Shown: piece after piece, positions 18,883 through 56,715 of the stretch | Layout: each line of letters opens with the position of its first letter | How positions within the stretch are numbered: the stretch's first letter is position 1 | Assembly: GCA_964016885.1 (NCBI GenBank) | Contig: OZ024740.1 | Span: 434,620,001-434,684,000 of the forward strand | Origin: Eledone cirrhosa | Taxonomy: Eukaryota | DNA: 64,000 nucleotides | Direction of reading: 5' to 3' | The notes under the pieces: model-generated | The model's database searches: none | What the model saw: the letters and a program-made list of their open reading frames with translations, nothing else | Told to the model about the DNA's origin: nothing | Made by a program: the position numbers and the translations under genes

Positions 18883-19075
18883 AAGGCAGTGGATTGGCAG
18901 TATCGGTAGAGGGTCGGACGCCATGCTTTGCAGCAAAGAGTTACGGCCCTTTATGGTCTGAGTTCAAATCCCGCCGAGGTTAGTTTTGCCTTTCATCCTT
19001 ACGGGGTCGATAAAATAAAGTACCAGTAATACACTGGGATAATTGCTGGCCTTGTGCCTAACGTAGAAACAATTA
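18883..19075 (+). mobile_element. tRNA-derived SINE family B
   Basis: Homologous to 18425-18655. Confidence 0.82.
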
Positions 19076-19151
19076 GTAACTTAATGTATTTCCTATGAAA
19101 TATTTGTTTTATTTGCAGTAATTTTTTATACAACTTTCTTTTTAATTTTAG

Positions 19152-19225
19152 ATTGCCATTCATGGTAAAAGCTTCTGTGTCGCAGCAAAGAAAGCGTTTT
19201 CTCTGATTATGCGTAATCCTCTCAA
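19152..19225 (+). CDS. SLC44A: CTL/SLC44A exon I
   Basis: ttttag|...AA|gtaatt; IAIHGKSFCVAAKKAFSLIMRNPL matches the hallmark 'AIxGxxFCxSAKxAFxLxMRN'. Confidence 0.96.
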
Positions 19226-19724
19226 GTAATTGATCATTAATTAATCATTTCTGTATGAGTTAATAAGGGAGTCTCTATATTGTTGTTCAACCTGCTAGAG
19301 ATGACAGGGGCAGTGTTGTTAGTCAAGATTAAAAGATGAGCTAGAGGTTGATACTACTGTAGCTATCAACTTCATTGCTTTTATGTCCACTTTTCCAGGC
19401 TGCTATCAGTTAGATGTCTGAAACATTGTTTTACAACCAAATTAATTTACCGATGTCAACTCATTTAGTCGTTCCTTGCTACACACATGGAGACTATTTG
19501 ACTATTCTAAAAACCGAGATATACACCATATTGTGTGTGTGTGTATATATATAGAGAAATATATGAGAATGTTAGATGAAAAATGGTAATATGACAGATT
19601 AAGCTACTTCAAGAAACTTTGATAGAGTGTTTCAATATGATATTAGAATGAAATGAAATGATTTTAGTTGTTAACTAAAGAAAGATATATTAGACATGGA
19701 GAAATAACATTAAACTGGCAACTC

Positions 19725-22700
19725 CTCTATAAGGTGGTAGTGCTGGTGACATAACAAAGACACCCAGTCCACTCTGTAAGGTGGTAGTGGTGGTGACATA
19801 ACAAAGACACCCAGTCCACTCTGTAAGGTGGTAGTGGTGGTGACATAACAGACACCCAGTCCACTCTGTAAGGTGGTAGTGCTGGTGACATAAGACACCC
19901 AGTCCACTCTGTAAGGTGGTAGTGCTGGTGACATAACAAAGACACCCAGTCCACTCTGTAAGGTGGTAGTGGTGGTGACATAACAGACACCCAGTCCACT
20001 CTGTAAGGTGGTAGTGACATAACAGACACCCAGTCCACTCTGTAAGGTGGTTGTGGTGGTGACATAACAGACACCCAGTCCACTCTGTAAGGTGGTAGTG
20101 GTGGTGACATAAGACACCCAGTCCACTCTGCAAGGTGGTAGTGACATAAGAGACACCCAGTCCACTCTGTAAGGTGGTTGTGGTGGTGACATAAGACACC
20201 CAGTCCACTCTGTAAGGTGGTAGTGACATAACAGACACCCAGTCCACTCTGTAAGGTAATAGTGACATAACAAAGACACCCAGTCGACTCTGTAAGGTGG
20301 TTGTGGTGGTGACATAACAGACACCCACTCCACTCTGTAAGGTGGTAGTGGTGGTGACATAAGACACCCAGTCCACTCTGTAAGGTGGTAGTGACATAAC
20401 AGACACCCAGTCCACTCTGTAAGGTGGTTGTGGTGGTGACATAAGACACCCAGTCCACTCTGTAAGGTGGTAGTGACATAACAGACACCCAGTCCACTCT
20501 GTAAGGTAGTAGTGACATAACAAAGACACCCAGTCCACTCTGTAAGGTGGTAGTGGTGGTGACATAAGACACCCAGTCCTCTCTGTAAGGTGGTAGTGCT
20601 GGTGACATAACTGACACCCAGTCCACTCTGTAAGGTGGTTGTGGTGGTGACATAACAAAGACACCCAGTCCACTCTGTAAGGTGGTAGTGGTGGTGACAT
20701 AAGACACCCAGTCCACTCTGTAAGGTGGTAGTGCTGGTGACATAACAGACACCCAGTCCACTCTGTAAGGTGGTAGTGCTGGTGACATAACAGACACCCA
20801 GTCCACTCTGTAAGGTGGTAGTGCTGGTGACATAACAGACACCCAGTCCACTCTGTAAGGTGGTAGTGCTGGTGACATAACTGACACCCAGTCCACTCTG
20901 TAAGGTGGTAGTGGTGGTGACATAAGACACCCAGTCCACTCTGTAAGGTGGTTGTGGTGGTGACATAAAGACACCCAGTCCACTCTGTAAGGTGGTAGTG
21001 GTGGTGACATAACAGACACCCAGTCCACTCTGTAAGGTGGTTGTGGTGGTGACATAACAGACACCCAGTCCACTCTGTAAGGTGGTAGTGGTGGTGACAT
21101 AACAGACACCCAGTCCACTCTGTAAGGTGGTTGTGGTGGTGACATAACAAAGACACCCAGTCCACTCTGTAAGGTGGTAGTGACATAACAGACACCCAGT
21201 CCACTCTGTAAGGTGGTTGTGCTGGTGACATAACAGACACCCAGTCCACTCTGTAAGGTGGTAGTGGTGGTGACATAAGACACCCAGTCCACTCTGTAAG
21301 GTGGTAGTGACATAAGAGACACCCAGTCCACTCTGTAAGGTGGTTGTGGTGGTGACATAAGACACCCAGTCCACTCTGTAAGGTGGTAGTGACATAACAG
21401 ACACCCAGTCCACTCTGTAAGGTAGTAGTGACATAACAAAGACACCCAGTCCACTCTGTAAGGTGGTTGTGGTGGTGACATAACAGACACCCAGTCCACT
21501 CTGTAAGGTAGTAGTGACATAACAAAGACACCCAGTCCACTCTGTAAGGTGGTAGTGGTGGTGACATAAGACACCCAGTCCACTCTGTAAGGTGGTTGTG
21601 GTGGTGACATAACAAAGACACCCAGTCCACTCTGTAAGTTGGTAGTGGTGGTGACATAAGACACCCAGTCCACTCTGTAAGGTGGTTGTGGTGGTGACAT
21701 AACAAAGACACCCAGTCCACTCTGTAAGGTGGTAGTGGTGGTGACATAAGACACCCAGTCCACTCTGTAAGGTGGTTGTGGTGGTGACATAACAAAGACA
21801 CCCAGTCCACTCTGTAAGTTGGTAGTGGTGGTGACATAAGACACCCAGTCCACTCTGTAAGGTGGTTGTGGTGGTGACATAACAAAGACACCCAGTCCAC
21901 TCTGTAAGGTGGTAGTGCTGGTGACATAACAGACACCCAGTCCACTCTGTAAGGTGGTAGTGCTGGTGACATAACAGACACCCAGTCCACTCTGTAAGGT
22001 GGTAGTGCTGGTGACATAACAGACACCCAGTCCACTCTGTAAGGTGGTAGTGCTGGTGACATAACAGACACCCAGTCCACTCTGTAAGGTGGTTGTGGTG
22101 GTGACATAAGACACCCAGTCCACTCTGTAAGGTGGTAGTGCTGGTGACATAACAGACACCCAGTCCACTCTGTAAGGTGGTAGTGGTGGTGACATAACAA
22201 AGACACCCAGTGCACTCTGTAAGGTGGTTGTGGTGGTGACATAACAAAGACACCCAGTCCACTCTGTAAGGTGGTAGTGACATAACAGACACCCAGTCCA
22301 CTCTGTAAGGTGGTTGTGGTGGTGACATAACAGACACCCAGTCCACTCTGTAAGGTAGTAGTGACATAACAGACACCCAGTCCACTCTGTAAGGTAGTAG
22401 TGACATAACAGACACCCAGTCCACTCTGTAAGGTGGTTGTGGTGGTGACATAACAGACACCCAGTCCACTCTGTAAGGTAGTAGTGACATAACAGACACC
22501 CAGTCCACTCTGTAAGGTGGTTGTGGTGGTGACATAACAAAGACACCCAGTCCACTCTGTAAGGTAGTAGTGACATAACAGACACCCAGTCCACTCTGTA
22601 AGGTGGTTGTGGTGGTGACATAACAGACACCCAGTCCACTCTGTAAGGTGGTTGTGGTGGTGACATAACAAAGACACCCAGTCCACTCTGTAAGGTAGTA

Positions 22701-25700
22701 GTGACATAACAGACACCCAGTCCACTCTGTAAGGTGGTTGTGGTGGTGACATAACAGACACCCAGTCCACTCTGTAAGGTAGTAGTGACATAACAGACAC
22801 CCAGTCCACTCTGTAAGGTGGTTGTGGTGGTGACATAACAGACACCCAGTCCACTCTGTAAGGTAGTAGTGACATAACAGACACCCAGTCCACTCTGTAA
22901 GGTAGTAGTGACATAACAGACACCCAGTCCACTCTGTAAGGTGGTTGTGGTGGTGACATAACAGACACCCAGTCCACTCTGTAAGGTAGTAGTGACATAA
23001 CAGACACCCAGTCCACTCTGTAAGGTGGTAGTGACATAAGACACCCAGTCCACTCTGTAAGGTGGTAGTGACATAACAGACACCCAGTCCACTCTGTAAG
23101 GTAGTAGTGACATAACAAAGACACCCAGTCCACTCTGTAAGGTAGTAGTGGTGGTGACATAAGACACCCAGTCCACTCTGTAAGGTGGTAGTGCTGGTGA
23201 CATAACTGACACCCAGTCCACTCTGTAAGGTGGTTGTGGTGGTGACATAACAAAGACACCCAGTCCACTCTGTAAGGTGGTAGTGGTGGTGACATAAGAC
23301 ACCCAGTCCACTCTGTAAGGTGGTAGTGCTGGTGACATAACAGACACCCAGTCCACTCTGTAAGGTGGTAGTGCTGGTGACATAACAGACACCCAGTCCA
23401 CTCTGTAAGGTGGTAGTGCTGGTGACATAACTGACACCCAGTCCACTCTGTAAGGTGGTAGTGGTGGTGACATAAGACACCCAGTCCACTCTGTAAGGTG
23501 GTTGTGGTGGTGACATAACAAAGACACCCAGTCCACTCTGTAAGGTGGTAGTGGTGGTGACATAAGACACCCAGTCCACTCTGTAAGGTGGTAGTGCTGG
23601 TGACATAACAGACACCCAGTCCACTCTGTAAGGTGGTAGTGGTGGTGACATAACAGACACCCAGTCCACTCTGTAAGGTGGTAGTGGTGGTGACATAACA
23701 GACACCCAGTCCACTCTGTAAGGTGGTTGTGGTGGTGACATAACAAAGACACCCAGTCCACTCTGTAAGGTGGTAGTGACATAACAGACACCCAGTCCAC
23801 TCTGTAAGGTGGTTGTGGTGGTGACATAACAAAGACACCCAGTCCACTCTGTAAGGTGGTAGTGACATAACAGACACCCAGTCCACTCTGCAAGGTGGTT
23901 GTGCTGGTGACATAACAGACACCCAGTCCACTCTGTAAGGTGGTTGTGGTGGTGACATAAGACACCCAGTCCACTCTGTAAGGTGGTAGTGACATAACAG
24001 ACACCCAGTCCACTCTGTAAGTGGTAGTGGTGGTGACATAACAAAGACACCCAGTCCACTCTGTAAGGTGGTTGTGGTGGTGACATACAGACACCCAGTC
24101 CACTCTGTAAGGTGTTGTGAGGTGACATAACAAAGACACCCAGTCCACTCTGTAAGGTGGTAGTGGTGGTGACATAAGACACCCAGTCCACTCTGTAAGG
24201 TGGTTGTGGTGGTGACATAACAAAGACACCCAGTCCACTCTGTAAGTTGGTAGTGGTGGTGACATAAGACACCCAGTCCACTCTGTAAGGTGGTTGTGGT
24301 GGTGACATAACAAAGACACCCAGTCCACTCTGTAAGGTGGTAGTGGCTGGTGACATAAAGACACCCAGTCCACTCTGTAAGGTGGTAGTGCTGGTGACAT
24401 AACAAGACACCCAGTCCACTCTGTAAGTTGGTAGTGGTGGTGACATACAGACACCCAGTCCACTCTGTAAGGTGGTTGTGGTGGTGACATAACAAGACAC
24501 CCAGTCCACTCTGTAAGGTGGTAGTGCTGGTGACATAACAGACACCCAGTCCACTCTGTAAGGTGGTAGTGGTGGTGACATAACAAGACACCCAGTCCAC
24601 TCTGTAAGGTGGTAGTGTGGTGACATAACAGACACCCAGTCCACTCTGTAAGGTGGTAGTGTGGTGACATAACAGACACCCAGTCCACTCTGTAAGGTGG
24701 TTGTGGTGGTGACATAACAGACACCCAGTCCACTCTGTAAGGTGGTAGTGCTGGTGACATAACAGACACCCAGTCCACTCTGTAAGGTGGTAGTGGTGGT
24801 GACATAACAGACACCCAGTCACTCTGTAAGGTGGTTGTGGTGGTGACATAACAAGACACCCAGTCCACTCTGTAAGGTGGTAGTGTGACATAACAGACAC
24901 CCAGTCCACTCTGTAAGGTGGTTGTGGTGGTGACATAACAGACACCCAGTCCACTCTGTAAGGTAGTAGTGACATAACAGACACCCAGTCCACTCTGTAA
25001 GGTGGTAGGTAGTGACATAACAGACACCCAGTCCACTCTGTAAGGTGGTTGTGGTGGTGACATAACAAGACACCCAGTCCACTCTGTAAGGTAGTAGTGA
25101 CATAACAGACACCCAGTCCACTCTGTAAGGTGGTTGTGGTGGTGACATAACAAGACACCCAGTCCACTCTGTAAGGTAGTAGTGACATAACAGACACCCA
25201 GTCCACTCTGTAAGGTGGTTGTGGTGGTGACATAACAGACACCCAGTCCACTCTGTAAGGTGGTTGTGGTGGTGACATAACAAAGACACCCAGTCCACTC
25301 TGTAAGGTAGTAGTGACATAACAGACACCCAGTCCACTCTGTAAGGTGGTTGTGGTGGTGACATAACAGACACCCAGTCCACTCTGTAAGGTAGTAGTGA
25401 CATAACAGACACCCAGTCCACTCTGTAAGGTGGTTGTGGTGGTGACATAACAGACACCCAGTCCACTCTGTAAGGTGGTAGTGACATAACAGACACCCAG
25501 TCCACTCTGTAAGGTAGTAGTGACATAACAGACACCCAGTCCACTCTGTAAGGTGGTTGTGGTGGTGACATAACAGACACCCAGTCCACTCTGTAAGGTA
25601 GTAGTGACATAACAGACACCCAGTCCACTCTGTAAGGTGGTAGTGACATAAGACACCCAGTCCACTCTGTAAGGTGGTAGTGACATAACAGACACCCAGT

Positions 25701-28700
25701 CCACTCTGTAAGGTAGTAGTGACATAACAAGACACCCAGTCCACTCTGTAAGGTAGTAGTGGTGGTGACATAAGACACCCAGTCCACTCTGTAAGGTGGT
25801 AGTGCTGGTGACATAACTGACACCCAGTCCACTCTGTAAGGTGGTTGTGGTGGTGACATAACAAAGACACCCAGTCCACTCTGTAAGGTGGTAGTGGTGG
25901 TGACATAAGACACCCAGTCCACTCTGTAAGGTGGTAGTGCTGGTGACATAACAGACACCCAGTCCACTCTGTAAGGTGGTAGTGCTGGTGACATAACAGA
26001 CACCCAGTCCACTCTGTAAGGTGGTAGTGCTGGTGACATAACTGACACCCAGTCCACTCTGTAAGGTGGTAGTGGTGGTGACATAAGACACCCAGTCCAC
26101 TCTGTAAGGTGGTTGTGGTGGTGACATAACAAAGACACCCAGTCCACTCTGTAAGGTGGTAGTGGTGGTGACATAAGACACCCAGTCCACTCTGTAAGGT
26201 GGTAGTGCTGGTGACATAACAGACACCCAGTCCACTCTGTAAGGTGGTAGTGGTGGTGACATAACAGACACCCAGTCCACTCTGTAAGGTGGTAGTGGTG
26301 GTGACATAACAGACACCCAGTCCACTCTGTAAGGTGGTTGTGGTGGTGACATAACAAAGACACCCAGTCCACTCTGTAAGGTGGTAGTGACATAACAGAC
26401 ACCCAGTCCACTCTGTAAGGTGGTTGTGGTGGTGACATAACAAAGACACCCAGTCCACTCTGTAAGGTGGTAGTGACATAACAGACACCCAGTCCACTCT
26501 GCAAGGTGGTTGTGCTGGTGACATAACAGACACCCAGTCCACTCTGTAAGGTGGTAGTGGTGGTGACAAGACACCCAGTCCACTCTGTAAGGTGGTAGTG
26601 ACATAAGAGACACCCAGTCCACTCTGTAAGGTGGTTGTGGTGGTGACATAAGACACCCAGTCCACTCTGTAAGGTGGTAGTGACATAAGACACCCAGTCC
26701 ACTCTGTAAGGTAGTAGTGACATAACAAAGACACCCAGTCCACTCTGTAAGGTGGTAGTGCTGGTGACATAACAGACACCCAGTCCACTCTGTAAGGTGG
26801 TAGTGCTGGTGACATAACTGACACCCAGTCCACTCTGTAAGGTGGTAGTGGTGGTGACATAAGACACCCAGTCCACTCTGTAAGGTGGTTGTGGTGGTGA
26901 CATAACAAAGACACCCAGTCCACTCTGTAAGGTGGTAGTGGTGGTGACATAAGACACCCAGTCCACTCTGTAAGGTGGTAGTGCTGGTGACATAACAGAC
27001 ACCCAGTCCACTCTGTAAGGTGGTAGTGCTGGTGACATAACTGACACCCAGTCCACTCTGTAAGGTGGTAGTGGTGGTGACATAAGACACCCAGTCCACT
27101 CTGTAAGGTGGTTGTGGTGGTGACATAACAAAGACACCCAGTCCACTCTGTAAGGTGGTAGTGGTGGTGACATAAGACACCCAGTCCACTCTGTAAGGTG
27201 GTAGTGCTGGTGACATAACAGACACCCAGTCCACTCTGTAAGGTGGTAGTGCTGGTGACATAACAGACACCCAGTCCACTCTGTAGGGTGGTAGTGGTGG
27301 TGACATAACAGACACCCAGTCCACTCTGTAAGGTGGTAGTGCTGGTGACATAACAGACACCCAGTCCACTCTGTAAGGTGGTAGTGCTGGTGACATAACT
27401 GACACCCAGTCCACTCTGTAAGGTGGTAGTGGTGGTGACATAAGACACCCAGTCCACTCTGTAAGGTGGTTATGGTGGTGACATAACAAAGACACCCAGT
27501 CCACTCTGTAAGGTGGTAGTGGTGGTGACATAAGACACCCAGTCCACTCTGTAAGGTGGTAGTGCTGGTGACATAACAGACACCCAGTCCACTCTGTAAG
27601 GTGGTAGTGCTGGTGACATAACTGACACCCAGTCCACTCTGTAAGGTGGTAGTGGTGGTGACATAAGACACCCAGTCCACTCTGTAAGGTGGTTGTGGTG
27701 CTGACATAACAAAGACACCCAGTCCACTCTGTAAGGTGGTGGTAGTGGTGGTGACATAAGACACCCAGTCCACTCTGTAAGGTGGTAGTGCTGGTGACAT
27801 AACAGACACCCAGTCCACTCTGTAAGGTGGTAGTGCTGGTGACATAACAGACACCCAGTCCACTCTGTAGGGTGGTAGTGGTGGTGACATAACAGACACC
27901 CAGTCCACTCTGTAAGGTGGTAGTGCTGGTGACATAACAGACACCCAGTCCACTCTGTAAGGTGGTTGTGGTGGTGACATAACAAAGACACCCAGTCCAC
28001 TCTGTAAGGTGGTAGTGACATAACAGACACCCAGTCCACTCTGTAAGGTGGTTGTGGTGGTGACATAACAGACACCCAGTCCACTCTGTAAGGTGGTTGT
28101 GGTGGTGACATAACAAAGACACCCAGTCCACTCTGTAAGGTGGTTGTGGTGGTGACATAACAAAGACACCCAGTCCACTCTGTAAGGTAGTAGTGACATA
28201 ACAGACACCCAGTCCACTCTGTAAGGTAGTAGTGACATAACAGACACCCAGTCCACTCTGTAAGGTGGTAGTGCTGGTGACATAACAGACACCCAGTCTA
28301 CTCTGTAAGGTGGTTGTGGTGGTGACATAAGACACCCAGTCCACTCTGTAAGGTGGTAGTGGTGGTGACATAACAGACACCCAGTCAACTCTGTAAGGTA
28401 GTAGTGACATAACAGACACCCAGTCCACTCTGTAAGGTAGTAGTGACATAACAGACACCCAGTCCACTCTGTAAGGTAGTAGTGACATAACAGACACCCA
28501 GTCCACTCTGTAAGCTAGTAGTGACATAACAGACACCCAGTCCACTCTGTAAGGTGGTTGAGGTGGTGACATAAGACACCCAGTCCACTCTGTAAGGTGG
28601 TAGTGCTGGTGACATAACAGACACCCAGTCCACTCTGTAAGGTGGTAGTGGTGGTGACATAACAGACACCCAGTCCACTCTGTAAGGTGGTAGTGACATA

Positions 28701-31700
28701 ACAGACACCCAGTCCACTCTGTAAGGTGGTTGTGGTGGTGACATAACTGACACCCAGTCCACTCTGTAAGGTAGTAGTGACATAACAGACACCCAGTCCA
28801 CTCTGTAAGGTAGTAGTGACATAACAGACACCCAGTCCACTCTGTAAGGTAGTAGTGACATAACAGACACCCAGTCCACGCTGTAAGGTGGTTGTGGTGG
28901 TGACATAAGACACCCAGTCCACTCTGTAAGGTGGTAGTGCTGGTGACATAACAGACACCCAGTCCACTCTGTAAGGTGGTAGTGCTGGTGACATAACAGA
29001 CACCCAGTCCAATCTGTAAGGTGGTAGTGCTGGTGACATAACAGACACCCAGTCCACTCTGTAAGGTGGTAGTGACATAACAGACACCCAGTCCACTCTG
29101 TAAGGTAGTAGTGACATAACAAAGACACCCAGTCTACTCTGTAAGATGGTTGTGGTGGTGACATAACAGACACCCAGTCCACTCTGTAAGGTAGTAGTGA
29201 CATAACAAAGACACCCAGTCCACTCTGTAAGGTGGTAGTGCTGGTGACATAACTGACACCCAGTCCACTCTGTAAGGTGGTAGTGGTGGTGACATAAGAC
29301 ACCCAGTCCACTCTGTAATGTGGTTGTGGTGGTGACATAACAAAGACACCCAGTCCACTCTGTAAGGTGGTAGTGGTGGTGACATAAGACACCCAGTCCA
29401 CTCTGTAAGGTGGTAGTGCTGGTGACATAACAGACACCCAGTCCAATCTGTAAGGTGGTTGTGGTGGTGACATAACAGACACCCAGTCCACTCTGTAAGG
29501 TGGTAGTGGTGGTGACATAACAGACACCCAGTCCACTCTGTAAGGTGGTTGTGGTGGTGACATAACAAAGACACCCAGTCCACTCTGTAAGGTGGTAGTG
29601 ACATAACAGACACCCAGTCCACTCTGTAAGGTGGTTGTGCTGGTGACATAACAGACACCCAGTCCACTCTGTAAGGTGGTAGTGGTGGTGACATAACAGA
29701 CACCCAGTCCACTCTGTAAGGTGGTAGTGGTGGTGACATAAGACACCCAGTCCACTCTGTAAGGTGGTAGTGACATAACAGACACCCAGTCCACTCTGTA
29801 AGGTGGTTGTGGTGGTGACATAACTGACACCCAGTCCACTCTGTAAGGTAGTAGTGACATAACAGACACCCAGTCCACTCTGTAAGGTAGTAGTGACATA
29901 ACAGACACCCAGTCCACTCTGTAAGGTAGTAGTGACATAACAGACACCCAGTCCACGCTGTAAGGTGGTTGTGGTGGTGACATAAGACACCCAGTCCACT
30001 CTGTAAGGTGGTAGTGCTGGTGACATAACAGACACCCAGTCCACTCTGTAAGGTGGTAGTGCTGGTGACATAACAGACACCCAGTCCACTCTGTAAGGTG
30101 GTAGTGGTGGTGACATAAGACACCCAGTCCACTCTGTAAGGTGGTAGTGACATAACAGACACCCAGTCCACTCTGTAAGGTAGTAGTGACATAACAAAGA
30201 CACCCAGTCCACTCTGTAAGGTGGTGACGGTGGTGACATAAGACACCCAGTCCACTCTGTAAGGTGGTAGTGACATAACAGACACCCAGTCCACTCTGTA
30301 AGGTAGTAGTGACATAACAAAGACACCCAGTCCACTCTGTAAGGTGGTAGTGGTGGTGACATAAGACACCCAGTCCACTCTGTAAGGTGGTAGTGCTGGT
30401 GACATAGCAGACACCCAGTCCACTCTGTAAGGTGGTAGTGCTGGTGACATAACAGACACCCAGTCCACTCTGTAAGGTGGTAGTGCTGGTGACATAACTG
30501 ACACCCAGTCCACCCTGTAAGGTGGTAGTGGTGGTGACATAAGACACCCAGTCCACTCTGTAAGGTGGTTGTGGTGGTGACATAACAAAGACACCCAGTC
30601 CACTCTGTAAGGTGGTAGTGGTGGTGAAATAAGACACCCAGTCCACTCTGTAAGGTGGTAGTGCTGGTGACATAACAGACACCCAGTCCACTCTGTAAGG
30701 TGGTTGTGGTGGTGACATAACAGACACCCAGTCCACTCTGTAAGGTGGTTGTGGTGGTGACATAACAGACACCCAGTCCACTCTGTAAGGTGGTTGTGGT
30801 GGTGACATAACAGACACCCAGTCCACTCTGTAAGGTAGTAGTGACATAACAAAGACACCCAGTCCACTCTGTAAGGTGGTAGTGGTGGTGACATAAGACA
30901 CCCAGTCCACTCTGTAAGGTGGTAGTGCTGGTGACATAGCAGACACCCAGTCCACTCTGTAAGGTGGTAGTGGTGGTGACATAACAAAGACACCCAGTCC
31001 ACTCTGTAAGGTGGTTGTGGTGGTGACATAACAGACACCCAGTCCACTCTGTAAGGTGGTAGTGCTGGTGACATAACAGACACCCAGTCCACTCTGTAAG
31101 GTGGTAGTGCTGGTGACATAACTGACACCCAGTCCACCCTGTAAGGTGGTAGTGGTGGTGACATAAGACACCCAGTCCACTCTGTAAGGTGGTAGTGGTG
31201 GTGACATAACAGACACCCAGTCCACTCTGTAAGGTGGTAGTGCTGGTGACATAACAGACACCCAGTCCACTCTGTAAGGTGGTTGTGGTGGTGACATAAC
31301 AGACACCCAGTCCACTCTGTAAGGTGGTTGTGGTGGTGACATAACAAAGACACCCAGTCCACTCTGTAAGGTAGTAGTGACATAACAGACACCCAGTCCA
31401 CTCTGTAAGGTAGTAGTGACATAAGACACCCAGTCCACTCTGTAAGGTGGTTGTGGTGGTGACATAACAGACACCCAGTCCACTCTGTAAGGTAGTAGTG
31501 ACATAACAGACACCCAGTCCACTCTGTAAGGTGGTTGTGGTGGTGACATAACTGACACCCAGTCCACTCTGTAAGGTGGTAGTGCTGGTGACATAACTGA
31601 CACCCAGTCCACTCTGTAAGGTAGTAGTGACATAACAGACACCCAGTCCACTCTGTAAGGTAGTAGTGACATAACAGACACCCAGTCCACTCTGTAAGGT

Positions 31701-46700: not shown

Positions 46701-49700
46701 CACCCAGTCCACTCTGTAAGGTGGTAGTGGTGGTGACATAACAGACACCCAGTCCACTCTGTAAGGTGGTAGTGCTGGTGACATAACAGACACCCAGTCC
46801 ACTCTGTAAGGTGGTAGTGCTGGTGACATAACAGACACCCAGTCCACTCTGTAAGGTGGTAGTGCTGGTGACATAACTGACACCCAGTCCACTCTGTAAG
46901 GTGGTAGTGGTGGTGACATAACAAAGACACCCAGTGCACTCTGTAAGGTGGTTGTGGTGGTGACATAAGACACCCAGTCCACTCTGTAAGGTGGTAGTGC
47001 TGGTGACATAAGACACCCAGTCCACTCTGTAAGGTGGTAGTGGTGGTGACATAAGACACCCAGTCCACTCTGTAAGGTGGTAGTGCTGGTGACATAACAG
47101 ACACCCAGTCCACTCTGTAAGGTGGTTGTGGTGGTGACATAACAGACACCCAGTCCACTCTGTAAGGTGGTAGTGGTGGTGACATAACAGACACCCAGTC
47201 CACTCTGTAAGGTGGTTGTGGTGTTGACATAACAAAGACACCCAGTCCACTCTGTAAGGTGGTAGTGACATAAGAGACACCCAGTCCACTCTGTAAGGTG
47301 GTTGTGGTGGTGACATAAGACACCCAGTCCACTCTGTAAGGTGGTAGTGCTGGTGACATAACAGACACCCAGTCCACTCTGTAAGGTGGTAGTGCTGGTG
47401 ACATAACAGACACCCAGTCCACTCTGTAAGGTGGTAGTGCTGGTGACATAACAGACACCCAGTCCACTCTGTAAGGTGGTAGTGCTGGTGACATAACAGA
47501 CACCCAGTCCACTCTGTAAGGTGGTAGTGGTGGTGACATAAGACACCCAGTCCACTCTGTAAGGTGGTAGTGCTGGTGACATAACTGACACCCAGTCCAC
47601 TCTGTAAGGTGGTAGTGGTGGTGACATAAGACACCCAGTCCACTCTGTAAGGTGGTAGTGGTGGTGACATAAGACACCCAGTCCACTCTGTAAGGTGGTT
47701 GTGGTGGTGACATAACAAAGACACCCAGTCCACTCTGTAAGGTGGTAGTGGTGGTGACATAAGACACCCAGTCCACTCTGTAAGGTGGTAGTGCTGGTGA
47801 CATAACAGACACCCAGTCCACTCTGTAAGGTGGTAGTGCTGGTGACATAACTGACACCCAGTCCACTCTGTAAGGTGGTAGTGGTGGTGACATAAGACAC
47901 CCAGTCCACTCTGTAAGGTGGTTGTGGTGGTGACATAACAAAGACACCCAGTCCACTCTGTAAGGTGGTAGTGGTGGTGACATAAGACACCCAGTCCACT
48001 CTGTAAGGTGGTAGTGCTGGTGACATAACAGACACCCAGTCCACTCTGTAAGGTGGTAGTGCTGGTGACATAACAGACACCCAGTCCACTCTGTAAGGTG
48101 GTTGTGGTGGTGACATAACAGACACCCAGTCCACTCTGTAAGGTGGTTGTGGTGGTGACATAACAAAGACACCCAGTCCACTCTGTAAGGTGGTAGTGAC
48201 ATAACAGACACCCAGTCCACTCTGTAAGGTGGTAGTGGTGGTGACATAAGACACCCAGTCCACTCTGTAAGGTGGTAGTGACATAAGAGACACCCAGTCC
48301 ACTCTGTAAGGTGGTTGTGGTGGTGACATAAGACACCCAGTCCACTCTGTAAGGTGGTAGTGCTGGTGACATAAGACACCCAGTCCACTCTGTAAGGTGG
48401 TAGTGACATAACAGACACCCAGTCCACTCTGTAAGGTAGTAGTGACATAACAAAGACACCCAGTCCACTCTGTAAGGTGGTTGTGGTGGTGACATAACAG
48501 ACACCCAGTCCACTCTGTAAGGTGGTAGTGGTGGTGACATAAGACACCCAGTCCACTCTGTAAGGTGGTAGTGACATAACAGACACCCAGTCCACTCTGT
48601 AAGGTAGTAGTGACATAACAAAGACACCCAGTCCACTCTGTAAGGTGGTAGTGGTGGTGACATAAGACACCCAGTCCACTCTGTAAGGTGGTAGTGCTGG
48701 TGACATAACAGACACCCAGTCTACTCTGTAAGGTGGTAGTGCTGGTGACATAACAGACACCCAGTCCACTCTGTAAGGTGGTAGTGCTGGTGACATAACA
48801 GACACCCAGTCCACTCTGTAAGGTGGTAGTGCTGGTGACATAACTGACACCCAGTCCACTCTGTAAGGTGGTAGTGGTTGTGACATAAGACACCCAGTCC
48901 ACTCTGTAAGGTGGTTGTGGTGGTGACATAACAAAGACACCCAGTCCACTCTGTAAGGTGGTAGTGGTGGTGACATAAGACACCCAGTCCACTCTGTAAG
49001 GTGGTAGTGCTGGTGACATAAGACACCCAGTCCACTCTGTAAGGTGGTAGTGCTGGTGACATAACAGACACCCAGTCCACTCTGTAAGGTGGTAGTGGTG
49101 GTGACATAACAGACACCCAGTCCACTCTGTAAGGTGGTAGTGCTGGTGACATAACAGACACCCAGTCCACTCTGTAAGGTGGTTGTGGTGGTGACATAAC
49201 AAAGACACCCAGTGCACTCTGTAAGGTGGTTGTGGTGGTGACATAACAAAGACACCCAGTCCACTCTGTAAGGTGGTAGTGACATAACAGACACCCAGTC
49301 CACTCTGTAAGGTGGTTGTGGTGGTGACATAACAGACACCCAGTCCACTCTGTAAGGTGGTTGTGGTGGTGACATAACAAAGACACCCAGTCCAACCCAG
49401 TCCACTCTGTAAGGTAGTAGTGACATAAGACACCCAGTCCACTCTGTAAGGTAGTAGTGACATAAGACACCCAGTCCACTCTGTAAGGTAGTAGTGACAT
49501 AACAGACACCCAGTCCACTCTGTAAGGTGGTTGTGGTGGTGACATAACAGACACCCAGTCCACTCTGTAAGGTAGTAGTGACATAACAGACACCCAGTCC
49601 ACTCTGTAAGGTGGTTGTGGTGGTGACATAACTGACACCCAGTCCACTCTGTAAGGTAGTAGTGACATAACAGACACCCAGTCCACTCTGTAAGGTAGTA

Positions 49701-52700
49701 GTGACATAACAGACACCCAGTCCACTCTGTAAGGTGGTAGTGCTGGTGACATAACAGACACCCAGTCCACTCTGTAAGGTGGTTGTGGTGGTGACATAAC
49801 AGACACCCAGTCCACTCTGTAAGGTAGTAGTGACATAACAGACACCCAGTCCACTCTGTAAGGTAGTAGTGACATAACAGAGACCCAGTCCACTCTGTAA
49901 GGTAGTAGTGACATAACAGACACCCAGTCCACTCTGTAAGGTAGTAGTGACATAACAGACACCCAGTCCACTCTGTAAGCTAGTAGTGACATAACAGACA
50001 CCCAGTCCACTCTGTAAGGTGGTAGTGGTGGTGACATAAGACACCCAGTCCACTCTGTAAGGTAGTAGTGCTGGTGACATAACAGACACCCAGTCCACTC
50101 TGTAAGGTGGTAGTGCTGGTGACATAACAGACACCCAGTCCACTCTGTAAGGTAGTAGTGCTGGTGACATAACTGACACCCAGTCCACTCTGTAAGGTAG
50201 TAGTGCTGGTGACATAACAGACACCCAGTCCACTCTGTAAGGTGGTAGTTCTGGTGACATAATAGACACCCAGTCCACTCTGTAAGGTGGTAGTGCTGGT
50301 GACATAACAGACACCCAGTCCACTCTGTAAGGTGGTTGTGGTGGTGACATAACAGACACCCAGTCCACTCTGTAAGGTAGTAGTGACATAACAGACACCC
50401 AGTCCACTCTGTAAGGTAGTAGTGACATAACAGACACCCAGTCCACTCTGTAAGGTGGTAGTGGTGGTGACATAAGACACCCAGTCCACTCTGTAAGGTG
50501 GTAGTGACATAACAAAGACACCCAGTTAACTCTGTAAAGTGGTAGTGGTGGTGACATCACAGACACCCAGTCCACTCTGTAAGGTGGTAGTGCTGGTGAC
50601 ATAACAGACACCCGGTCCACTCTGTAAGGTGGTAGTGCTGGTGACATAACAGACACCCAGTCCACTCTGTAAGGTGGTAGTGCTGGTGACATAACAAAGA
50701 CACCCAGTCCACTCTGTAAGGTCGTAGTGCTGGTGACATAACAGACACCCAGTCCACTCTGTAAGGTGGTAGTGCTGGTGACATAATAGACACCCAGTCC
50801 ACTCTGTAAGGTGGTAGTGGTGGTGACATAACAGACACCCAGTCCACTCTGTAAGGTGGTAGTGGTGGTGACATAACAAAGACACCCAGTCCACTCTGTA
50901 AGGTGGTAGTGCTGGTGACATAACAGACACCCAGTCCACTCTGTAAGGTTTGTAATGCTGGCGACATAACAGACACCCAGTTCACTCTGTAAGGTGGTAG
51001 TGGTGGTGACATAACAGACACCCAGTCCACTCTGTAAGGTGGTAGTGCTGGTGACATAACAAAGACACCCAGTCCACTCTGTAAGATGGTAGTGCTGGTG
51101 ACATAACAGAGACCCAGTCCACTCTGTAAGGTGGTAGTGCTGGTGACATAACAGACACCCAGTCCACTCTGTAAGGTGGTAGTGCTGGTGACATAACAGA
51201 CACCCAGTCCACTCTGTAAGGTGGTAGTGGTGGTGACATAACAGACACCCAGTGCACTCTGTAAGGTGGTAGTGCTGGTGACATAACAGACACACAGTCC
51301 ACTCTGTAAGGTGGCAGTGGTGGTGACATAACAGACACCCAGTGCACTCTGTAAGGTGGTAGTGCTGGTGACATAACTGACACCCAGTCCACTCTGTAAG
51401 GTGGTAGTGCTGGTGACATAACAGACACCCAGTCCACTCTGTAAGGTGGTAGTGGTGGTGACATAAGACACCCAGTCCACTCGGTAAGGTGGTTGTGGTG
51501 GTGACATAACAGACACCCAGTCCACTCTGTAAGGTGGTAGTGCTGGTGACATAACAGACACCCGGTCCACTCTGTAAGGTGGTAGTGGTGGTGACATAAC
51601 AGACACCCAGTCCACTCTGTAAGGTGGTAGTGCTGGTGACATAACAAAGACACCCAGTCCACTCTGTAAGGTGGTAGTGCTGGTGACATAACAGACACCC
51701 AGTCCACTCTGTAAGGTGGTAGTGCTGGTGACATAACAAAGACACCCAGTCCACTCTGTAAGGTGGTAGTGGTGGTGACATAAGACACCAGTCCACTCTG
51801 TAAGGTTGTACTGCCGGTGACATAACAGACACCCAGTCCACTCTGTAAGGTGGTAGTGCTGGTGACATAACAAAGACACCCAGTCTACTCTGTAAGGTGG
51901 TAGTGCTGGTGACATAAGACACCCAGTCCACTCTGTAAGGTGGTAGTGCTGGTGACATAACAGACACCCAGTCCACTCTGTAAGGTGGTAGTGCTGGTGA
52001 CATAACAAAGACACCCAGTCTACTGTGTAAGGTGGTAATGCTGGTGACATAACAAAGACACACAGTCTACTATGTAAGGTGGTAGTGCTGGTGACATAAG
52101 ACACCCAGTCCACTCTGTAAGGTGGTAGTGCTGGTGACATAACAAAGACACCCAGTCCACTCTGTAAGGTGGTAGTGCTGGTGACATAACAGACACCCAG
52201 TCCACTCTGTAAGGTGGTAGTGCTGGTGACATAACAAAGACACCCAGTCCACTCTGTAAGGTGGTAGTGCTGGTGACATAACAGACACCCAGTCCACTCT
52301 GTAAGGTGGTAGTGCTGGTGACATAACAAAGACACCCAGTCCACTCTGTAAGGTGGTAGTGCTGGTGACATAACAAAGACACCCAGTCCACTCTGTAAGG
52401 TGGTAGTGCTGGTGACATAACTGACACCCAGTCCACTCTGTAAGGTGGTAGTGCTGGTGACATAACAGACACCCAGTCCACTCTGTAAGGTGGTAGTGCT
52501 GGTGACATAACAAAGACACCCAGTCCACTCTGTAAGGTGGTAGTGCTGGTGACATAACAAAGACACCCAGTCCACTCTGTAAGGTGGTAGTGCTGGTGAC
52601 ATAACTGACACCCAGTCCACTCTGTAAGGTGGTAGTGCTGGTGACATAACTGACACCCAGTCCACTCTGTAAGGTGGTAGTGCTGGTGACATAAGACACC

Positions 52701-55700
52701 CAGTCCACTCTGTAAGGTGGTAGTGCTGGTGACATAACAGACACCCAGTCCACTCTGTAAGGTGGTAGTGCTGGTGACATAACTGACACCCAGTCCACTC
52801 TGTAAGGTGGTAGTGGTTGTGACATAAGACACCCAGTCCACTCTGTAAGGTGGTTGTGGTGGTGACATAACAAAGACACCCAGTCCACTCTGTAAGGTGG
52901 TAGTGGTGGTGACATAAGACACCCAGTCCACTCTGTAAGGTGGTAGTGCTGGTGACATAAGACACCCAGTCCACTCTGTAAGGTGGTAGTGCTGGTGACA
53001 TAACAGACACCCAGTCCACTCTGTAAGGTGGTAGTGGTGGTGACATAACAGACACCCAGTCCACTCTGTAAGGTGGTAGTGCTGGTGACATAACAGACAC
53101 CCAGTCCACTCTGTAAGGTGGTTGTGGTGGTGACATAACAAAGACACCCAGTGCACTCTGTAAGGGGGTTGTGGTGGTGACATAACAAAGACACCCAGTC
53201 CACTCTGTAAGGTGGTAGTGACATAACAGACACCCAGTCCACTCTGTAAGGTGGTTGTGGTGGTGACATAACAGACACCCAGTCCACTCTGTAAGGTGGT
53301 TGTGGTGGTGACATAACAAAGACACCCAGTCCACTCTGTAAGGTGGTTGTGGTGGTGACATAACAAAGACACCCAGTCCACTCTGTAAGGTAGTAGTGAC
53401 ATAAGACACCCAGTCCACTCTGTAAGGTAGTAGTGACATAAGACACCCAGTCCACTCTGTAAGGTAGTAGTGACATAACAGACACCCAGTCCACTCTGTA
53501 AGGTGGTTGTGGTGGTGACATAACAGACACCCAGTCCACTCTGTAAGGTAGTAGTGACATAACAGACACCCAGTCCACTCTGTAAGGTGGTTGTGGTGGT
53601 GACATAACTGACACCCAGTCCACTCTGTAAGGTAGTAGTGACATAACAGACACCCAGTCCACTCTGTAAGGTAGTAGTGACATAACAGACACCCAGTCCA
53701 CTCTGTAAGGTGGTAGTGCTGGTGACATAACAGACACCCAGTCCACTCTGTAAGGTGGTTGTGGTGGTGACATAACAGACACCCAGTCCACTCTGTAAGG
53801 TAGTAGTGACATAACAGACACCCAGTCCACTCTGTAAGGTAGTAGTGACATAACAGAGACCCAGTCCACTCTGTAAGGTAGTAGTGACATAACAGACACC
53901 CAGTCCACTCTGTAAGGTAGTAGTGCTGGTGACATAACAGACACCCAGTCCACTCTGTAAGGTGGTAGTGCTGGTGACATAACAGACACCCAGTCCACTC
54001 TGTAAGGTAGTAGTGCTGGTGACATAACTGACACCCAGTCCACTCTGTAAGGTAGTAGTGCTGGTGACATAACAGACACCCAGTCCACTCTGTAAGGTGG
54101 TAGTGCTGGTGACATAATAGACACCCAGTCCACTCTGTAAGGTGGTAGTGCTGGTGACATAACAGACACCCAGTCCACTCTGTAAGGTGGTTGTGGTGGT
54201 GACATAACAGACACCCAGTCCACTCTGTAAGGTAGTAGTGACATAACAGACACCCAGTCCACTCTGTAAGGTAGTAGTGACATAACAGACACCCAGTCCA
54301 CTCTGTAAGGTGGTAGTGGTGGTGACATAAGACACCCAGTCCACTCTGTAAGGTGGTAGTGGTGGTGACATAACAAAGACACCCAGTTAACTCTGTAAGG
54401 TGGTAGTGGTGGTGACATCACAGACACCCAGTCCACTCTGTAAGGTGGTAGTGCTGGTGACATAACAGACACCCGGTCCACTCTGTAAGGTGGTAGTGCT
54501 GGTGACATAACAGACACCCAGTCCACTCTGTAAGGTCGTAGTGCTGGTGACATAACAGACACCCAGTCCACTCTGTAAGGTGGTAGTGCTGGTGACATAA
54601 TAGACACCCAGTCCACTCTGTAAGGTGGTAGTGGTGGTGACATAACAGACACCCAGTCCACTCTGTAAGGTGGTAGTGGTGGTGACATAACAAAGACACC
54701 CAGTCCACTCTGTAAGGTGGTAGTGCTGGTGACATAACAGACACCCAGTCCACTCTGTAAGGTTTGTAGTGCTGGTGACATAACAGACACCCAGTCCACT
54801 CTGTAAGGTGGTAGTGGTGGTGACATAACAGACACCCAGTCCACTCTGTAAGGTGGTAGTGCTGGTGACATAACAAAGACACCCAGTCCACTCTGTAAGA
54901 TGGTAGTGCTGGTGACATAACAGAGACCCAGTCCACTCTGTAAGGTGGTAGTGCTGGTGACATAACAGACACCCAGTCCACTCTGTAAGGTGGTAGTGCT
55001 GGTGACATAACAGACACCCAGTCCACTCTGTAAGGTGGTAGTGGTGGTGACATAACAGACACCCAGTGCACTCTGTAAGGTGGTAGTGCTGGTGACATAA
55101 CAGACACACAGTCCACTCTGTAAGGTGGCAGTGGTGGTGACATAACAGACACCCAGTGCACTCTGTAAGGTGGTAGTGCTGGTGACATAACTGACACCCA
55201 GTCCACTCTGTAAGGTGGTAGTGCTGGTGACATAACAGACACCCAGTCCACTCTGTAAGGTGGTAGTGGTGGTGACATAAGACACCCAGTCCACTCTGTA
55301 AGGTGGTTGTGGTGGTGACATAACAGACACCCATTCCACTCTGTAAGGTGGTAGTGCTGGTGACATAACAGACACCCGGTCCACTCTGTAAGGTGGTAGT
55401 GGTGGTGACATAACAGACACCCAGTCCACTCTGTAAGGTGGTAGTGCTGGTGACATAACAAAGACACCCAGTCCACTCTGTAAGGTGGTAGTGCTGGTGA
55501 CATAACAGACACCCAGTCCACTCTGTAAGGTGGTAGTGCTGGTGACATAACAAAGACACCCAGTCCACTCTGTAAGGTGGTAGTGGTGGTGACATAACAG
55601 ACACCAGTCCACTCTGTAAGGTTGTACTGCCGGTGACATAACAGACACCCAGTCCACTCTGTAAGGTGGTAGTGCTGGTGACATAACAAAGACACCCAGT

Positions 55701-56551
55701 CTACTCTGTAAGGTGGTAGTGCTGGTGACATAAGACACCCAGTCCACTCTGTAAGGTGGTAGTGCTGGTGACATAACAGACACCCAGTCCACTCTGTAAG
55801 GTGGTAGTGCTGGTGACATAACAAAGACACCCAGTCTACTGTGTAAGGTGGTAATGCTGGTGACATAACAAAGACACACAGTCTACTATGTAAGGTGGTA
55901 GTGCTGGTGACATAAGACACCCAGTCCACTCTGTAAGGTGGTAGTGCTGGTGACATAACAAAGACACCCAGTCCACTCTGTAAGGTGGTAGTGCTGGTGA
56001 CATAACAGACACCCAGTCCACTCTGTAAGGTGGTAGTGCTGGTGACATAACAAAGACACCCAGTCCACTCTGTAAGGTGGTAGTGCTGGTGACATAACAG
56101 ACACCCAGTCCACTCTGTAAGGTGGTAGTGCTGGTGACATAACAAAGACACCCAGTCCACTCTGTAAGGTGGTAGTGCTGGTGACATAACAAAGACACCC
56201 AGTCCACTCTGTAAGGTGGTAGTGCTGGTGACATAACTGACACCCAGTCCACTCTGTAAGGTGGTAGTGCTGGTGACATAACAGACACCCAGTCCACTCT
56301 GTAAGGTGGTAGTGCTGGTGACATAACAAAGACACCCAGTCCACTCTGTAAGGTGGTAGTGCTGGTGACATAACAAAGACACCCAGTCCACTCTGTAAGG
56401 TGGTAGTGCTGGTGACATAACTGACACCCAGTCCACTCTGTAAGGTGGTAGTGCTGGTGACATAACTGACACCCAGTCCACTCTGTAAGGTGGTAGTGCT
56501 GGTGACATAAGACACCCAGTCCACTCTGTAAGGTGGTAGTGCTGGTGACAT
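19725..56551. repeat. Giant modular satellite, ~36.8 kb, 37-47-bp units: GACACCCAGTCCACTCTGTAAGG + variable (TGG/TAG)n module + GACATAA + 0-4-nt linker
   Basis: Continuous head-to-tail array with a 23-bp near-invariant core; kb-scale higher-order duplications are marked by rare variants. Confidence 0.99.
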
Positions 56552-56715
56552 GATGACAATCACCCAGCCATAGAAAACCAAGTGAAAAGTTGAGTGTATA
56601 AGAGATCAACTGACCTATCTGACGCCATGACTTGACAGCACTCAATATTTCATTCGAGTGTGGAATATTGAGAGGATATCTTTGAGTGGGTTTAATCCTG
56701 CTCCAATATCTTTTG

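What the first reader, a model, noticed from the sequence alone, without database searches (positions are those of the whole stretch)
19725..56580. The 36.8-kb satellite unit derives from the RTE/SINE shared 3' tail
Seen: unit GGTGACATAACAAAGACACCCAGTCCACTCTGTAAGGTGGTTG aligns with the SINE tail GGTGCCATGGCAAAAAGCACCCAGCACTCACTGTAAATGAGGTTG (12847-12891), the RTE UTR ACAAAAAACACACAGTCCACGCTGTAAATGTGG (2078-2110) and 61285-61320. The array's right edge runs into CCCAGCCATAGAAAACC (~56563-56579), matching the next tail motif CCAGCTGTAGAAAACC. It has the same orientation as the gene. Inference: several hundred copies of a putative RT-recognition segment would be transcribed in the pre-mRNA, possibly acting as an RT decoy/template or a small-RNA source.
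Basis: partly seen in the sequence, partly recalled or inferred. Interest (0 to 1): 0.75.

Follow-up and report, generated by a model that had tools for sequence, protein, structure and literature searches.

The report
Giant satellite grown from retrotransposon tail
A 36.8-kb tandem array of 848 short units is homologous to a repeated motif in the 3' end of an RTE-like LINE and its partner SINE, and it likely ballooned in place from one truncated element copy, which is an ordinary, already known way for satellite DNA to arise.

Summary
The array runs from 19725 to 56551 with 848 units of 37-47 bp. A unit trimer finds five places in the rest of the window, and all five are LINE/SINE 3' tails (E 3.9e-7 to 3e-3). 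None of 200 shuffled units reaches 19.9 bits. The right flank (56552 to about 56690) is a decayed copy of the rest of the tail.

The derivation is supported and can be stated more precisely. The unit is a variable-number tandem repeat built into the 3'UTR of an older RTE-like LINE lineage. Locus L120 shows ORF end, UTR, 6 units, tail and (GAT)n in that order. Copies with 3 to 35+ units before an intact tail are widespread: 4409 first-look candidates, and 29 of 30 fetched loci carry them. Of 30 other arrays, 11 run straight into the tail, while 0 of 35 left flanks do. Unit number changes in place. The window's array grew by 2.6-13.8-kb internal duplications.

The RT-decoy or small-RNA idea has no support. 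210 of 846 stems are broken without compensation, and no RNA run was listed. A choline-transporter-like gene on the + strand ends 448 bp upstream of the array, and no downstream exon was found in 230 kb.

This is a new member of a known kind: a retroelement-derived satellite.

The parts
19725..56551 (+). Minisatellite array: 848 units of 37-47 bp (modal unit 45 bp). It is internally built from 2.6-13.8-kb duplicated blocks.
   Evidence: TRF; unit census; block duplications with 37-40 of 40 consecutive units identical at lags of 59-319 units.
56552..56690 (+). Decayed remainder of the retroelement 3' tail directly after the last unit. It contains the CCAGCCATAGAAAACC motif at 56563-56579. No (GAT)n is left.
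   Evidence: Colinear alignment with the tails that follow other arrays. A profile of 9 other arrays' tails hits 56605-56671 with E 0.0025 over the whole window. nhmmer with the window's own RTE and SINE tails reaches 21-26 nt past the array end.
1..1920 (+). 3' part of the ORF of a young RTE-like LINE (reverse transcriptase plus PHD finger). It is open at the window's start.
   Evidence: ORF listing. Pfam RVT_1 E 1e-32 and PHD E 1.1e-5. 40 of 40 scored genomic copies of its 3'UTR are 99-100% identical, one of them the window's own copy, out of 1456 first-look candidates.
1921..2432 (+). 3'UTR of the young LINE. It holds four unit-like copies (2058-2167 and 2198-2279, inside a 112-bp duplication), then the rest of the tail and (GAT)8.
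   Evidence: Sequence; TRF periods 49 and 112; nhmmer unit hits.
12660..12990 (+). SINE with a tRNA-like head (12667-12724). Its 3' tail shares 105 of 118 positions with the old LINE tail and holds about 1.6 unit copies at 12825-12893.
   Evidence: Rfam tRNA at 27.5 bits, E 0.00098 in a 401-base search, which is below the gathering score of 29. Unit hit. Pairwise alignment.
6523..6865 (-). 5'-truncated copy of the older RTE-like LINE lineage: ORF end, UTR, about 1.6 units (6755-6678), full tail (6651-6532) and (GAT)n. It has the same tail subtype as the tails that follow the arrays.
   Evidence: Sequence, compared with L120. The tail profile hits it with E 1.1e-19. Unit hit with E 3.2e-4.
61260..61345 (+). 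Isolated tail fragment with one unit-like copy followed by GGAGGGCATCCAGCTGTAGAAAC.
   Evidence: Sequence; nhmmer E 3.1e-3.
9669..19277 (+). Six exon-like matches to a choline-transporter-like (PF04515) protein. The last one (19152-19277) ends 448 bp before the array.
   Evidence: Pfam hits; genome family search; tblastn with an intronless paralogue of the same genome.

Best explanation
The 36.8-kb array is an over-grown copy of a 45-48-bp tandem repeat that is built into the 3' untranslated tail of an RTE-like LINE lineage and shared with its partner SINE. It most likely started as one 5'-truncated retrotransposed copy and then expanded in place by unequal exchange or replication slippage.

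Shown:
- The unit is homologous to the tail.
- The array is followed by the rest of the tail.
- Intact LINE copies elsewhere carry the same repeat between the ORF and the tail, with 1.6 to 35+ units.
- Copies with identical flanks differ in unit number.
- The window's array consists of multi-kb duplicated blocks.

Inferred:
- This locus began as a truncated retrotransposition product.
- Growth was by unequal sister-chromatid or homologue exchange.
- The array has no function of its own.
For: (1) Homology. The five best unit hits in the non-array window are all element tails (E 3.9e-7 to 3e-3). 0 of 200 shuffled units reach 19.9 bits.

(2) Embedding. Of the 30 arrays with at least 250 nt of right flank captured, 11 continue on the same strand into the rest of the tail (E 1e-25 to 5e-4). 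Of 35 left flanks, 0 have a tail adjacent; the single hit lies about 350 nt upstream and belongs to another element. The window's own flank matches an independent tail profile at 56605-56671, E 0.0025.

(3) The unit is native to the LINE. L120 reads ORF end (45% aa identity to the window's ORF), about 100 bp of UTR, 6 units, tail and (GAT)n. L085 reads ORF end, UTR and 26 units. Window 6523-6865 on the minus strand is the same lineage with about 1.6 units. The young LINE has four unit-like copies.

(4) Spread. A query of 3 units plus tail gave 4409 first-look candidates. All 40 scored places match almost full length: 39 at 82-90% identity, plus the query's own place. 29 of 30 fetched loci have 3 to 35+ units before the tail. 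27 of 30 end in (GAT)n, although the query itself included (GAT)4. Many begin inside a unit at varying phase. A neat example lies 8 kb upstream of the window: 6.8 units, an intact tail and (GAT)4.

(5) In-place change. Three paralogous copies on contig C25 share both flank anchors but span 600, 547 and 978 bp.

(6) Growth mode. At lags of 12.9, 2.85, 13.8, 10.3 and 3.8 kb, 40, 39, 37, 37 and 37 of 40 consecutive units are identical.

(7) Homogenisation. Mean within-array unit identity is 0.906, against 0.788 between the modal units of 41 arrays.

(8) Age contrast. The window's tail remnant is far more decayed than the array units are from each other.
Against: No target-site duplication was found around any array-plus-tail element, including the window's. 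So insertion by retrotransposition at this locus is inferred from structure only.

The window's tail remnant is weak on its own: E 0.0025 with the profile, and no hit at E < 1e-3 with a single tail sequence. It has no (GAT)n.

19 of 30 other arrays show no detectable tail.

Six of the 30 loci are copies of one segmental duplication on C25, so independent insertions are fewer than loci.

The array's length and block structure rest on the assembly. Only the left junction (19049-19789) is confirmed by a short-read contig, possibly from the same individual.

Growth during reverse transcription, by template jumping between the repeated units, cannot be excluded for the first few units.
Confidence: 0.8

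Rival explanations
1. The arrays are made during retrotransposition rather than afterwards. The reverse transcriptase would repeatedly jump back between the tandem units of the template RNA, so each new insertion arrives with a long array and an abrupt 5' end.
For: All arrays examined start abruptly. In most, nothing from the element lies upstream (0 of 35 left flanks carry tail or SINE body next to the array). Unit number varies widely between insertions, from 3 to 35+. The repeat lies in the part of the tail that LINE and SINE share.
Against: Ordinary 5' truncation explains the abrupt starts equally well. Copies sharing both flanks differ in array length (600, 547 and 978 bp), which must have arisen after insertion. 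The window's array is built of 2.6-13.8-kb duplicated blocks with 37-40 of 40 units identical. That is a DNA-level process, and it is much younger than the decayed tail next to the array.
Confidence: 0.1
2. The array is kept because it does something. Its transcript would present hundreds of RT-recognition hairpins and act as a decoy or template for the LINE reverse transcriptase, or it would be a small-RNA source against the LINE/SINE.
For: The unit corresponds to the 5' start of the region shared by SINE and LINE (105 of 118 identical from the first hairpin onward). The CTGTAAA-loop hairpin keeps its stem between elements through a two-sided change, CACA/TGTG in the LINE against CTCA/TGAG in the SINE and old LINE. 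The array is in sense to a + strand gene.
Against: The 4-bp stem is intact in 636 of 846 unit junctions. The 153 GTAG variants and the other breaks are never compensated. The array RNA is not more stable than shuffles (z +1.10 on the + strand, +2.55 on the - strand). No downstream exon was found that would place the array in an intron. Dozens of sampled small arrays (37, 29), out of hundreds to thousands of first-look candidates, fit neutral turnover.
Confidence: 0.05
3. The direction is the reverse. A pre-existing host minisatellite was captured into the LINE 3'UTR, for example by 3' transduction or template switching, and the window's array is a remnant of that source rather than a derivative of the element.
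For: Homology alone does not give a direction. LINE 3'UTRs are known to pick up foreign sequence (general knowledge, not tested here).
Against: The window's array and 11 of 30 others are followed by element-specific tail sequence that is not part of the repeat. Unit-like copies occur in at least three diverged element lineages: the young LINE, the old LINE at 45-51% ORF identity, and the SINE. Even the tail's next segment looks like a further decayed unit (read by eye).
Confidence: 0.04

Closest known systems
SINE-derived satellites (sSats) of squamate reptiles (Vassetzky et al. 2023, PMC10702118; abstract and Discussion read)
   Same: Both are tandem repeats of part of a retroelement with a longer terminal unit that continues to the element's 3' (or 5') terminus. 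Both have many loci per genome, from a few units up to about 1000. Longer loci are more homogeneous. The proposed origin is a primary duplication followed by unequal recombination.
   Different: Here the repeat is already a native, variable part of an autonomous LINE's 3'UTR, seen between ORF and tail, so seeds are spread by the LINE itself. The units are 37-48 bp. The host is a different, AT-rich 3.0-Gb genome whose identity was not determined.
PisTR-A satellite from the hypervariable 3'UTR tandem repeats of Ogre LTR retrotransposons in pea (Macas et al. 2009, as summarised in the review PMC9659126; passages read)
   Same: A tandem repeat that belongs to a retroelement's 3'UTR is amplified into long satellite arrays outside complete elements.
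   Different: That case is an LTR retrotransposon in a plant. This one is a non-LTR LINE/SINE tail with a (GAT)n terminus.
SVA elements of hominids and their internal VNTR (recalled; no paper read here)
   Same: Both are retrotransposed elements carrying an internal VNTR of about 35-50-bp units whose number varies between copies and can expand.
   Different: SVA is a composite non-autonomous element mobilised by L1. Here the VNTR sits in the autonomous LINE's own 3'UTR and in its SINE partner's tail.
Stringent LINE/SINE pairs with a shared 3' stem-loop, e.g. eel UnaL2/UnaSINE1 (Kajikawa and Okada 2002; recalled, not read here)
   Same: The SINE 3' tail is homologous to the partner LINE's 3' tail (105 of 118). 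The tail contains a conserved small hairpin and a terminal short tandem repeat.
   Different: RT recognition of this hairpin is untested here. The hairpin is tandemly repeated and has given rise to satellites.
PcH-Sat satellite of the limpet Patella caerulea, proposed to derive from a Nin-SINE (PMC11121367; only the search listing and the start of the abstract seen)
   Same: A satellite is attributed to a SINE on the basis of sequence similarity.
   Different: It involves a different SINE superfamily and a different part of the element. The details were not read.

Membership tests
Retroelement-derived satellite (sSat-type architecture) | Array unit homologous to a defined part of the interspersed element, beyond chance | tested here: met
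   nhmmer E 3.9e-7 to 3e-3 at 5 element tails. 0 of 200 shuffles reach 19.9 bits.
Retroelement-derived satellite (sSat-type architecture) | Terminal unit continues into element sequence up to the element's terminus | tested here: met
   In the window: 56552 to about 56690, decayed, profile E 0.0025. In 11 of 30 other arrays the continuation is clear. At least 4 of those 11 still show three or more exact GAT repeats at the end.
Retroelement-derived satellite (sSat-type architecture) | Multiple loci, with homogenisation within loci | tested here: met
   146 matches at about 35 places, from 925 first-look candidates. Identity is 0.906 within arrays and 0.788 between them.
   RVT_1 E 1e-32 in the 639-aa ORF fragment at 1-1920. 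Only the 3' part of the ORF lies in the window.
   No phylogeny was made. The 5' part of the element is outside the window and was not analysed. A short tandem-repeat 3' terminus, (GAT)8, is present; that this is typical of RTE is recalled. The PHD finger is not something I can assign to the clade.
LINE/SINE partner pair with shared 3' tail | SINE 3' region homologous to the LINE 3' end; SINE head derived from a pol III gene | tested here: met
   Tail: 105 of 118 identical to the old LINE and 93 of 119 to the young LINE. The head matches tRNA at 27.5 bits, below Rfam's gathering score of 29, with E 0.00098 in a 401-base search.
LINE/SINE partner pair with shared 3' tail | The shared stem-loop is what the reverse transcriptase recognises | not testable with these tools
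   The evidence is indirect only. The hairpin is predicted in both long tails (z -2.13 and -3.50), and there is one two-sided stem change between elements.

The most novel reading that the evidence does not exclude
The 45-48-bp unit is the reverse transcriptase's recognition hairpin. On this reading the LINE lineage carries a variable-number array of its own RT-binding sites and seeds thousands of minisatellite loci by 5'-truncated retrotransposition. Loci that balloon, like this 848-unit array, would, if transcribed, act as multivalent sponges or super-templates for the element's RT.
Probability: 0.08. Interest if true: 0.65.

Novelty: new member of a known kind. Interest (0 to 1): 0.33.

Why it matters
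This locus gives a complete series for how a satellite is born from a retrotransposon:
- about 1.6 units in the SINE and in a minimal LINE tail;
- four unit-like copies in the young LINE;
- 3 to 35+ units in dispersed LINE copies;
- 848 units here.

There is also direct evidence that unit number changes at fixed loci. For annotators, it means a large class of minisatellites in this genome should be filed as LINE 3'UTR derivatives.

It does not change the current view of how satellites arise. Retroelement tails and 3'UTRs are established sources (PMC10702118, PMC9659126).

Tried and rejected
Target-site duplications. I compared 100 nt upstream of 11 arrays with the sequence after their tails. 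I found only short or low-complexity shared words. One 10-mer at L001 lies about 115 nt beyond the tail end, which is not convincing.

Expression. The look-up of sequencing runs listed no RNA holder, so nothing can be said about transcription either way.

Relatives. Contigs of a run of another organism (X4) cover 19107-19443 at about 90% identity but do not reach the array junction. Array-like words are abundant in X4 and X8, but summed contig depth is not a copy number.

RNA structure. Folding gave no signal for the array. My first 5+7+5 register for the hairpin was wrong for the satellite, which has a 4-bp stem and an 8-nt loop. I recounted.

Literature. A literal search for a 16-mer of the tail found 0 papers. 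The Octopus vulgaris repeat paper (PMC13282606; passages read) says nothing on such satellites, and I have no evidence that this genome is an octopus.

Relabelling. I first labelled window 6532-6990 on the minus strand as a SINE. The sequence shows it is a 5'-truncated LINE copy.

The 50-bp satellite at 56716-61166. The tail profile gave no hit inside it at E <= 10, so I treat it as unrelated.

Earlier notes. The search of earlier findings returned nothing for this genome.


Full report
**What is there**

The window lies at C1:434,620,001-434,684,000 of a 3.0-Gb assembly. That is 8.2 Mb from the end of a 442.9-Mb contig. The neighbourhood is packed with unrelated minisatellites.

TRF reports one array at 19725-56551 with period 45, 848.6 copies, 89% matches and 6% indels. 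Splitting on an anchor motif gives 848 anchors. Unit lengths are 45 (345), 39 (178), 43 (137), 47 (117), 41 (33) and 37 (15). There are 106 distinct unit strings, and the commonest occurs 120 times.

**Is the resemblance to the element tails real?**

Yes. I searched a trimer of the 47-bp unit with nhmmer against the 27.1 kb of non-array window on both strands. Its five best hits are:

| Place | Strand | E-value |
|---|---|---|
| 2058-2167 | + | 3.9e-7 |
| 2198-2279 | + | 7.3e-6 |
| 12825-12893 | + | 1.4e-5 |
| 6755-6678 | - | 3.2e-4 |
| 61278-61321 | + | 3.1e-3 |

Every one is a LINE or SINE 3' tail, and every one is in the element's sense orientation.

The best hit spans more than two units, because the tails themselves contain tandem copies of the motif. 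The young LINE's 3'UTR has TRF periods of 49 and 112. The SINE and the old LINE tail each have about 1.6 copies.

0 of 200 reach 19.9 bits and 2 of 200 reach 12.4 bits. The real unit has five hits at or above 12.4 bits.

**The flanks**

The flank aligns colinearly with the tails that follow other arrays as far as about 56690.

I built a profile only from the tail part downstream of GTAGAAA at nine other arrays. It hits 56605-56671 on the + strand with E 0.0025 for the whole 64-kb window. Since only about 150 nt in one orientation were of interest, the local significance is higher; that last point is my inference.

The remnant is much more decayed than the tails at other loci and has lost its (GAT)n. 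The left edge is abrupt. There is no SINE body and no LINE UTR or ORF upstream.

**The elements in the window**

- 1-1920 is the 3' part of a LINE ORF (RVT_1 E 1e-32, plus a PHD finger).
- Its 3'UTR (1921-2432) ends in (GAT)8. It belongs to a very young family: 40 of 40 scored copies are 99-100% identical, one of them the window's own copy, out of 1456 candidates.
- 12660-12990 is a SINE with a tRNA-like head (27.5 bits, below Rfam's gathering score).
- 6523-6865 on the minus strand, which I first took for a SINE, is a 5'-truncated copy of an older LINE lineage: ORF end, UTR, about 1.6 units, tail and (GAT)n.

The SINE tail and this old LINE tail are 105 of 118 identical. The shared region begins exactly at the first unit hairpin.

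**Related arrays elsewhere**

The unit finds 146 matches at about 35 places on many contigs, out of 925 first-look candidates of which 39 were scored. I delimited 37 arrays in 35 fetched loci.

Of the 30 arrays with at least 250 nt of right flank captured (the window's own included), 11 continue directly, on the same strand, into the rest of the tail (E 1e-25 to 5e-4). Of 35 left flanks, 0 have a tail next to the array. One hit lies 350 nt upstream and is the end of another element. 19 of the 30 show no tail at this threshold, the window's own among them.

No array has a SINE head or body upstream. The largest other array in this sample is about 4.4 kb with 85 units, so the window's is roughly eight times longer than any other I saw. 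I did not survey the whole genome.

**The unit is a native part of a LINE 3'UTR**

Eight kilobases upstream of the window lies a neat small element: 6.8 units of 48 bp, an intact tail and (GAT)4. Using its last three units plus tail as a query gave 4409 first-look candidates. All 40 scored places match almost full length: 39 at 82-90% identity, plus the query's own place.

In 29 of the 30 fetched loci the tail is preceded by 3 to 35+ units. 27 of 30 end in (GAT)n, although the query contained (GAT)4, so this count is biased.

L120 shows the full order: ORF end (45% amino-acid identity to the window's ORF), about 100 bp of UTR, six units, tail and (GAT)n. L085 shows ORF end, UTR and 26 units. 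Other loci start inside a unit at various phases, as expected for 5' truncation.

So the 'satellite' is a variable-number tandem repeat of the LINE's own 3'UTR, and it is spread around the genome with the element. Six of these 30 loci are copies of one segmental duplication on C25, so the number of independent insertions is smaller than the number of loci.

**How the arrays grow**

Three of the C25 paralogues share both an upstream and a downstream flank anchor, yet they span 600, 547 and 978 bp between anchor and tail, with 12, 10 and 18 hairpin motifs. Unit number therefore changes at a fixed locus.

The window's array is made of large duplicated blocks:

| Lag | Identical units out of 40 consecutive |
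|---|---|
| 299 units (12.9 kb) | 40 |
| 65 units (2.85 kb) | 39 |
| 319 units (13.8 kb) | 37 |
| 241 units (10.3 kb) | 37 |
| 86 units (3.8 kb) | 37 |
| 59 units (2.6 kb) | 33 |

This is the signature of unequal exchange on DNA. It is also young compared with the decayed tail beside it.

Arrays are more uniform inside than between loci (0.906 against 0.788 for the modal units of 41 arrays). Unit variants form a graded series. It runs from the LINE-like form (GTGGTCATGTAGGTGTCAC...) to the window's form (GTGGTAGTGCTGGTGACAT...).

**Function**

I found nothing that points to one.

- The unit keeps a 4-bp stem (CCAC...GTGG) around the loop TCTGTAAG in 636 of 846 junctions. The second commonest variant (GTAG, 153 junctions) and the other breaks are never compensated.
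- The array RNA is no more stable than shuffles (z +1.10 on the + strand and +2.55 on the - strand). The element tails do fold (z -2.13 and -3.50). Their CTGTAAA hairpin differs between LINE and SINE by a two-sided stem change.
- That this hairpin is what the RT recognises is an analogy with stringent LINE/SINE pairs. This is recalled from Kajikawa and Okada 2002, which I did not read here.

**Gene context**

Six exon-like matches to a choline-transporter-like protein (PF04515) lie on the + strand from 9669 to 19277. The last one ends 448 bp before the array, so the orientation statement is right.

The exons for the last 80 or so residues lie within about 6 kb in a paralogue 355 kb upstream. 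They were not found in the rest of the window or in the next 230 kb, of which 200 bases read N. Either this gene copy is truncated at the satellite block or its end is far away. The claim that the array is part of a pre-mRNA is therefore open. No RNA run was listed (no inference drawn from this).

**Assembly support**

One 741-bp short-read contig of run X1 spans 19049-19789 with one difference. It may come from the sequenced individual. Nothing independent confirms the array's length.

**Comparison with what is known**

The architecture is the one described for SINE-derived satellites of squamates. These are tandem units with a longer terminal unit running to the element's terminus, at many loci, with longer loci more homogeneous (PMC10702118, abstract and Discussion read).

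Satellites derived from retroelement 3'UTRs are also on record: Ogre/PisTR-A, the 3' part of cetacean L1, CR1/HinfI, and HeT-A (review PMC9659126, passages and Table 1 read). I found no paper on this particular LINE tail. That shows only that these four searches of the open-access library found none.

**Verdict**

The decoy/small-RNA inference is unsupported. It is an ordinary mechanism and a new member of a known kind. Interest is modest, mainly as an unusually complete series from 1.6 to 848 units.

Noticed in passing
window 9669-19277 (+); paralogue at G000:C1:434264872-434276726; intronless copy at G000:C1:111509798-111510826 (-): A choline-transporter-like (PF04515) gene copy has six detectable exons that stop 448 bp before the array. 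The exons for about the last 80 residues were not found in the following 274 kb. The same contig also holds a nearby paralogue and an intronless 506-aa open frame, possibly a retrocopy.
   Followed up: partly
window 3088-6450, with 3009-3067 (-) and 6523-6865 (-): A 3.4-kb array of a 20-bp unit lies between the 3' end of the truncated old LINE copy (about 50 bp away) and a separate terminal tail fragment with (GAT)n at 3009-3067 on the minus strand (E 0.029). This may be a second satellite associated with an element tail. No unit-to-tail homology was shown.
   Followed up: partly
window 1135-1266 (aa 379-422 of the ORF at 1-1920): The young LINE's ORF carries a PHD-finger match (E 1.1e-5) after the reverse transcriptase domain.
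   Followed up: no
L064, L067, L071, L078 (G000:C27 at 16.87, 20.40, 21.32 and 19.04 Mb): Four arrays on one small contig share the same modal 48-bp unit variant. This points to a chromosome-local subfamily or segmental duplication.
   Followed up: no
L095, L097, L099, L106, L110, L113 (G000:C25, 19.5-21.9 Mb): Six array-plus-tail loci share the same 3' flank, so they are copies of one segmental or tandem duplication spread over about 2.3 Mb.
   Followed up: partly
window 56716-61166, 62127-62688, 63370-63993; L091 1-10000; L092 1-1190, 5426-7503: The region is a mosaic of at least ten unrelated minisatellites (periods 16, 20, 24, 28, 34, 35, 47, 50 and 56/168 bp), 8.2 Mb from the contig end.
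   Followed up: no
window 18885-19075: Another, very abundant interspersed repeat shows enormous summed contig depth in runs of organisms A, B and E. It is unrelated to the tail family studied here.
   Followed up: no
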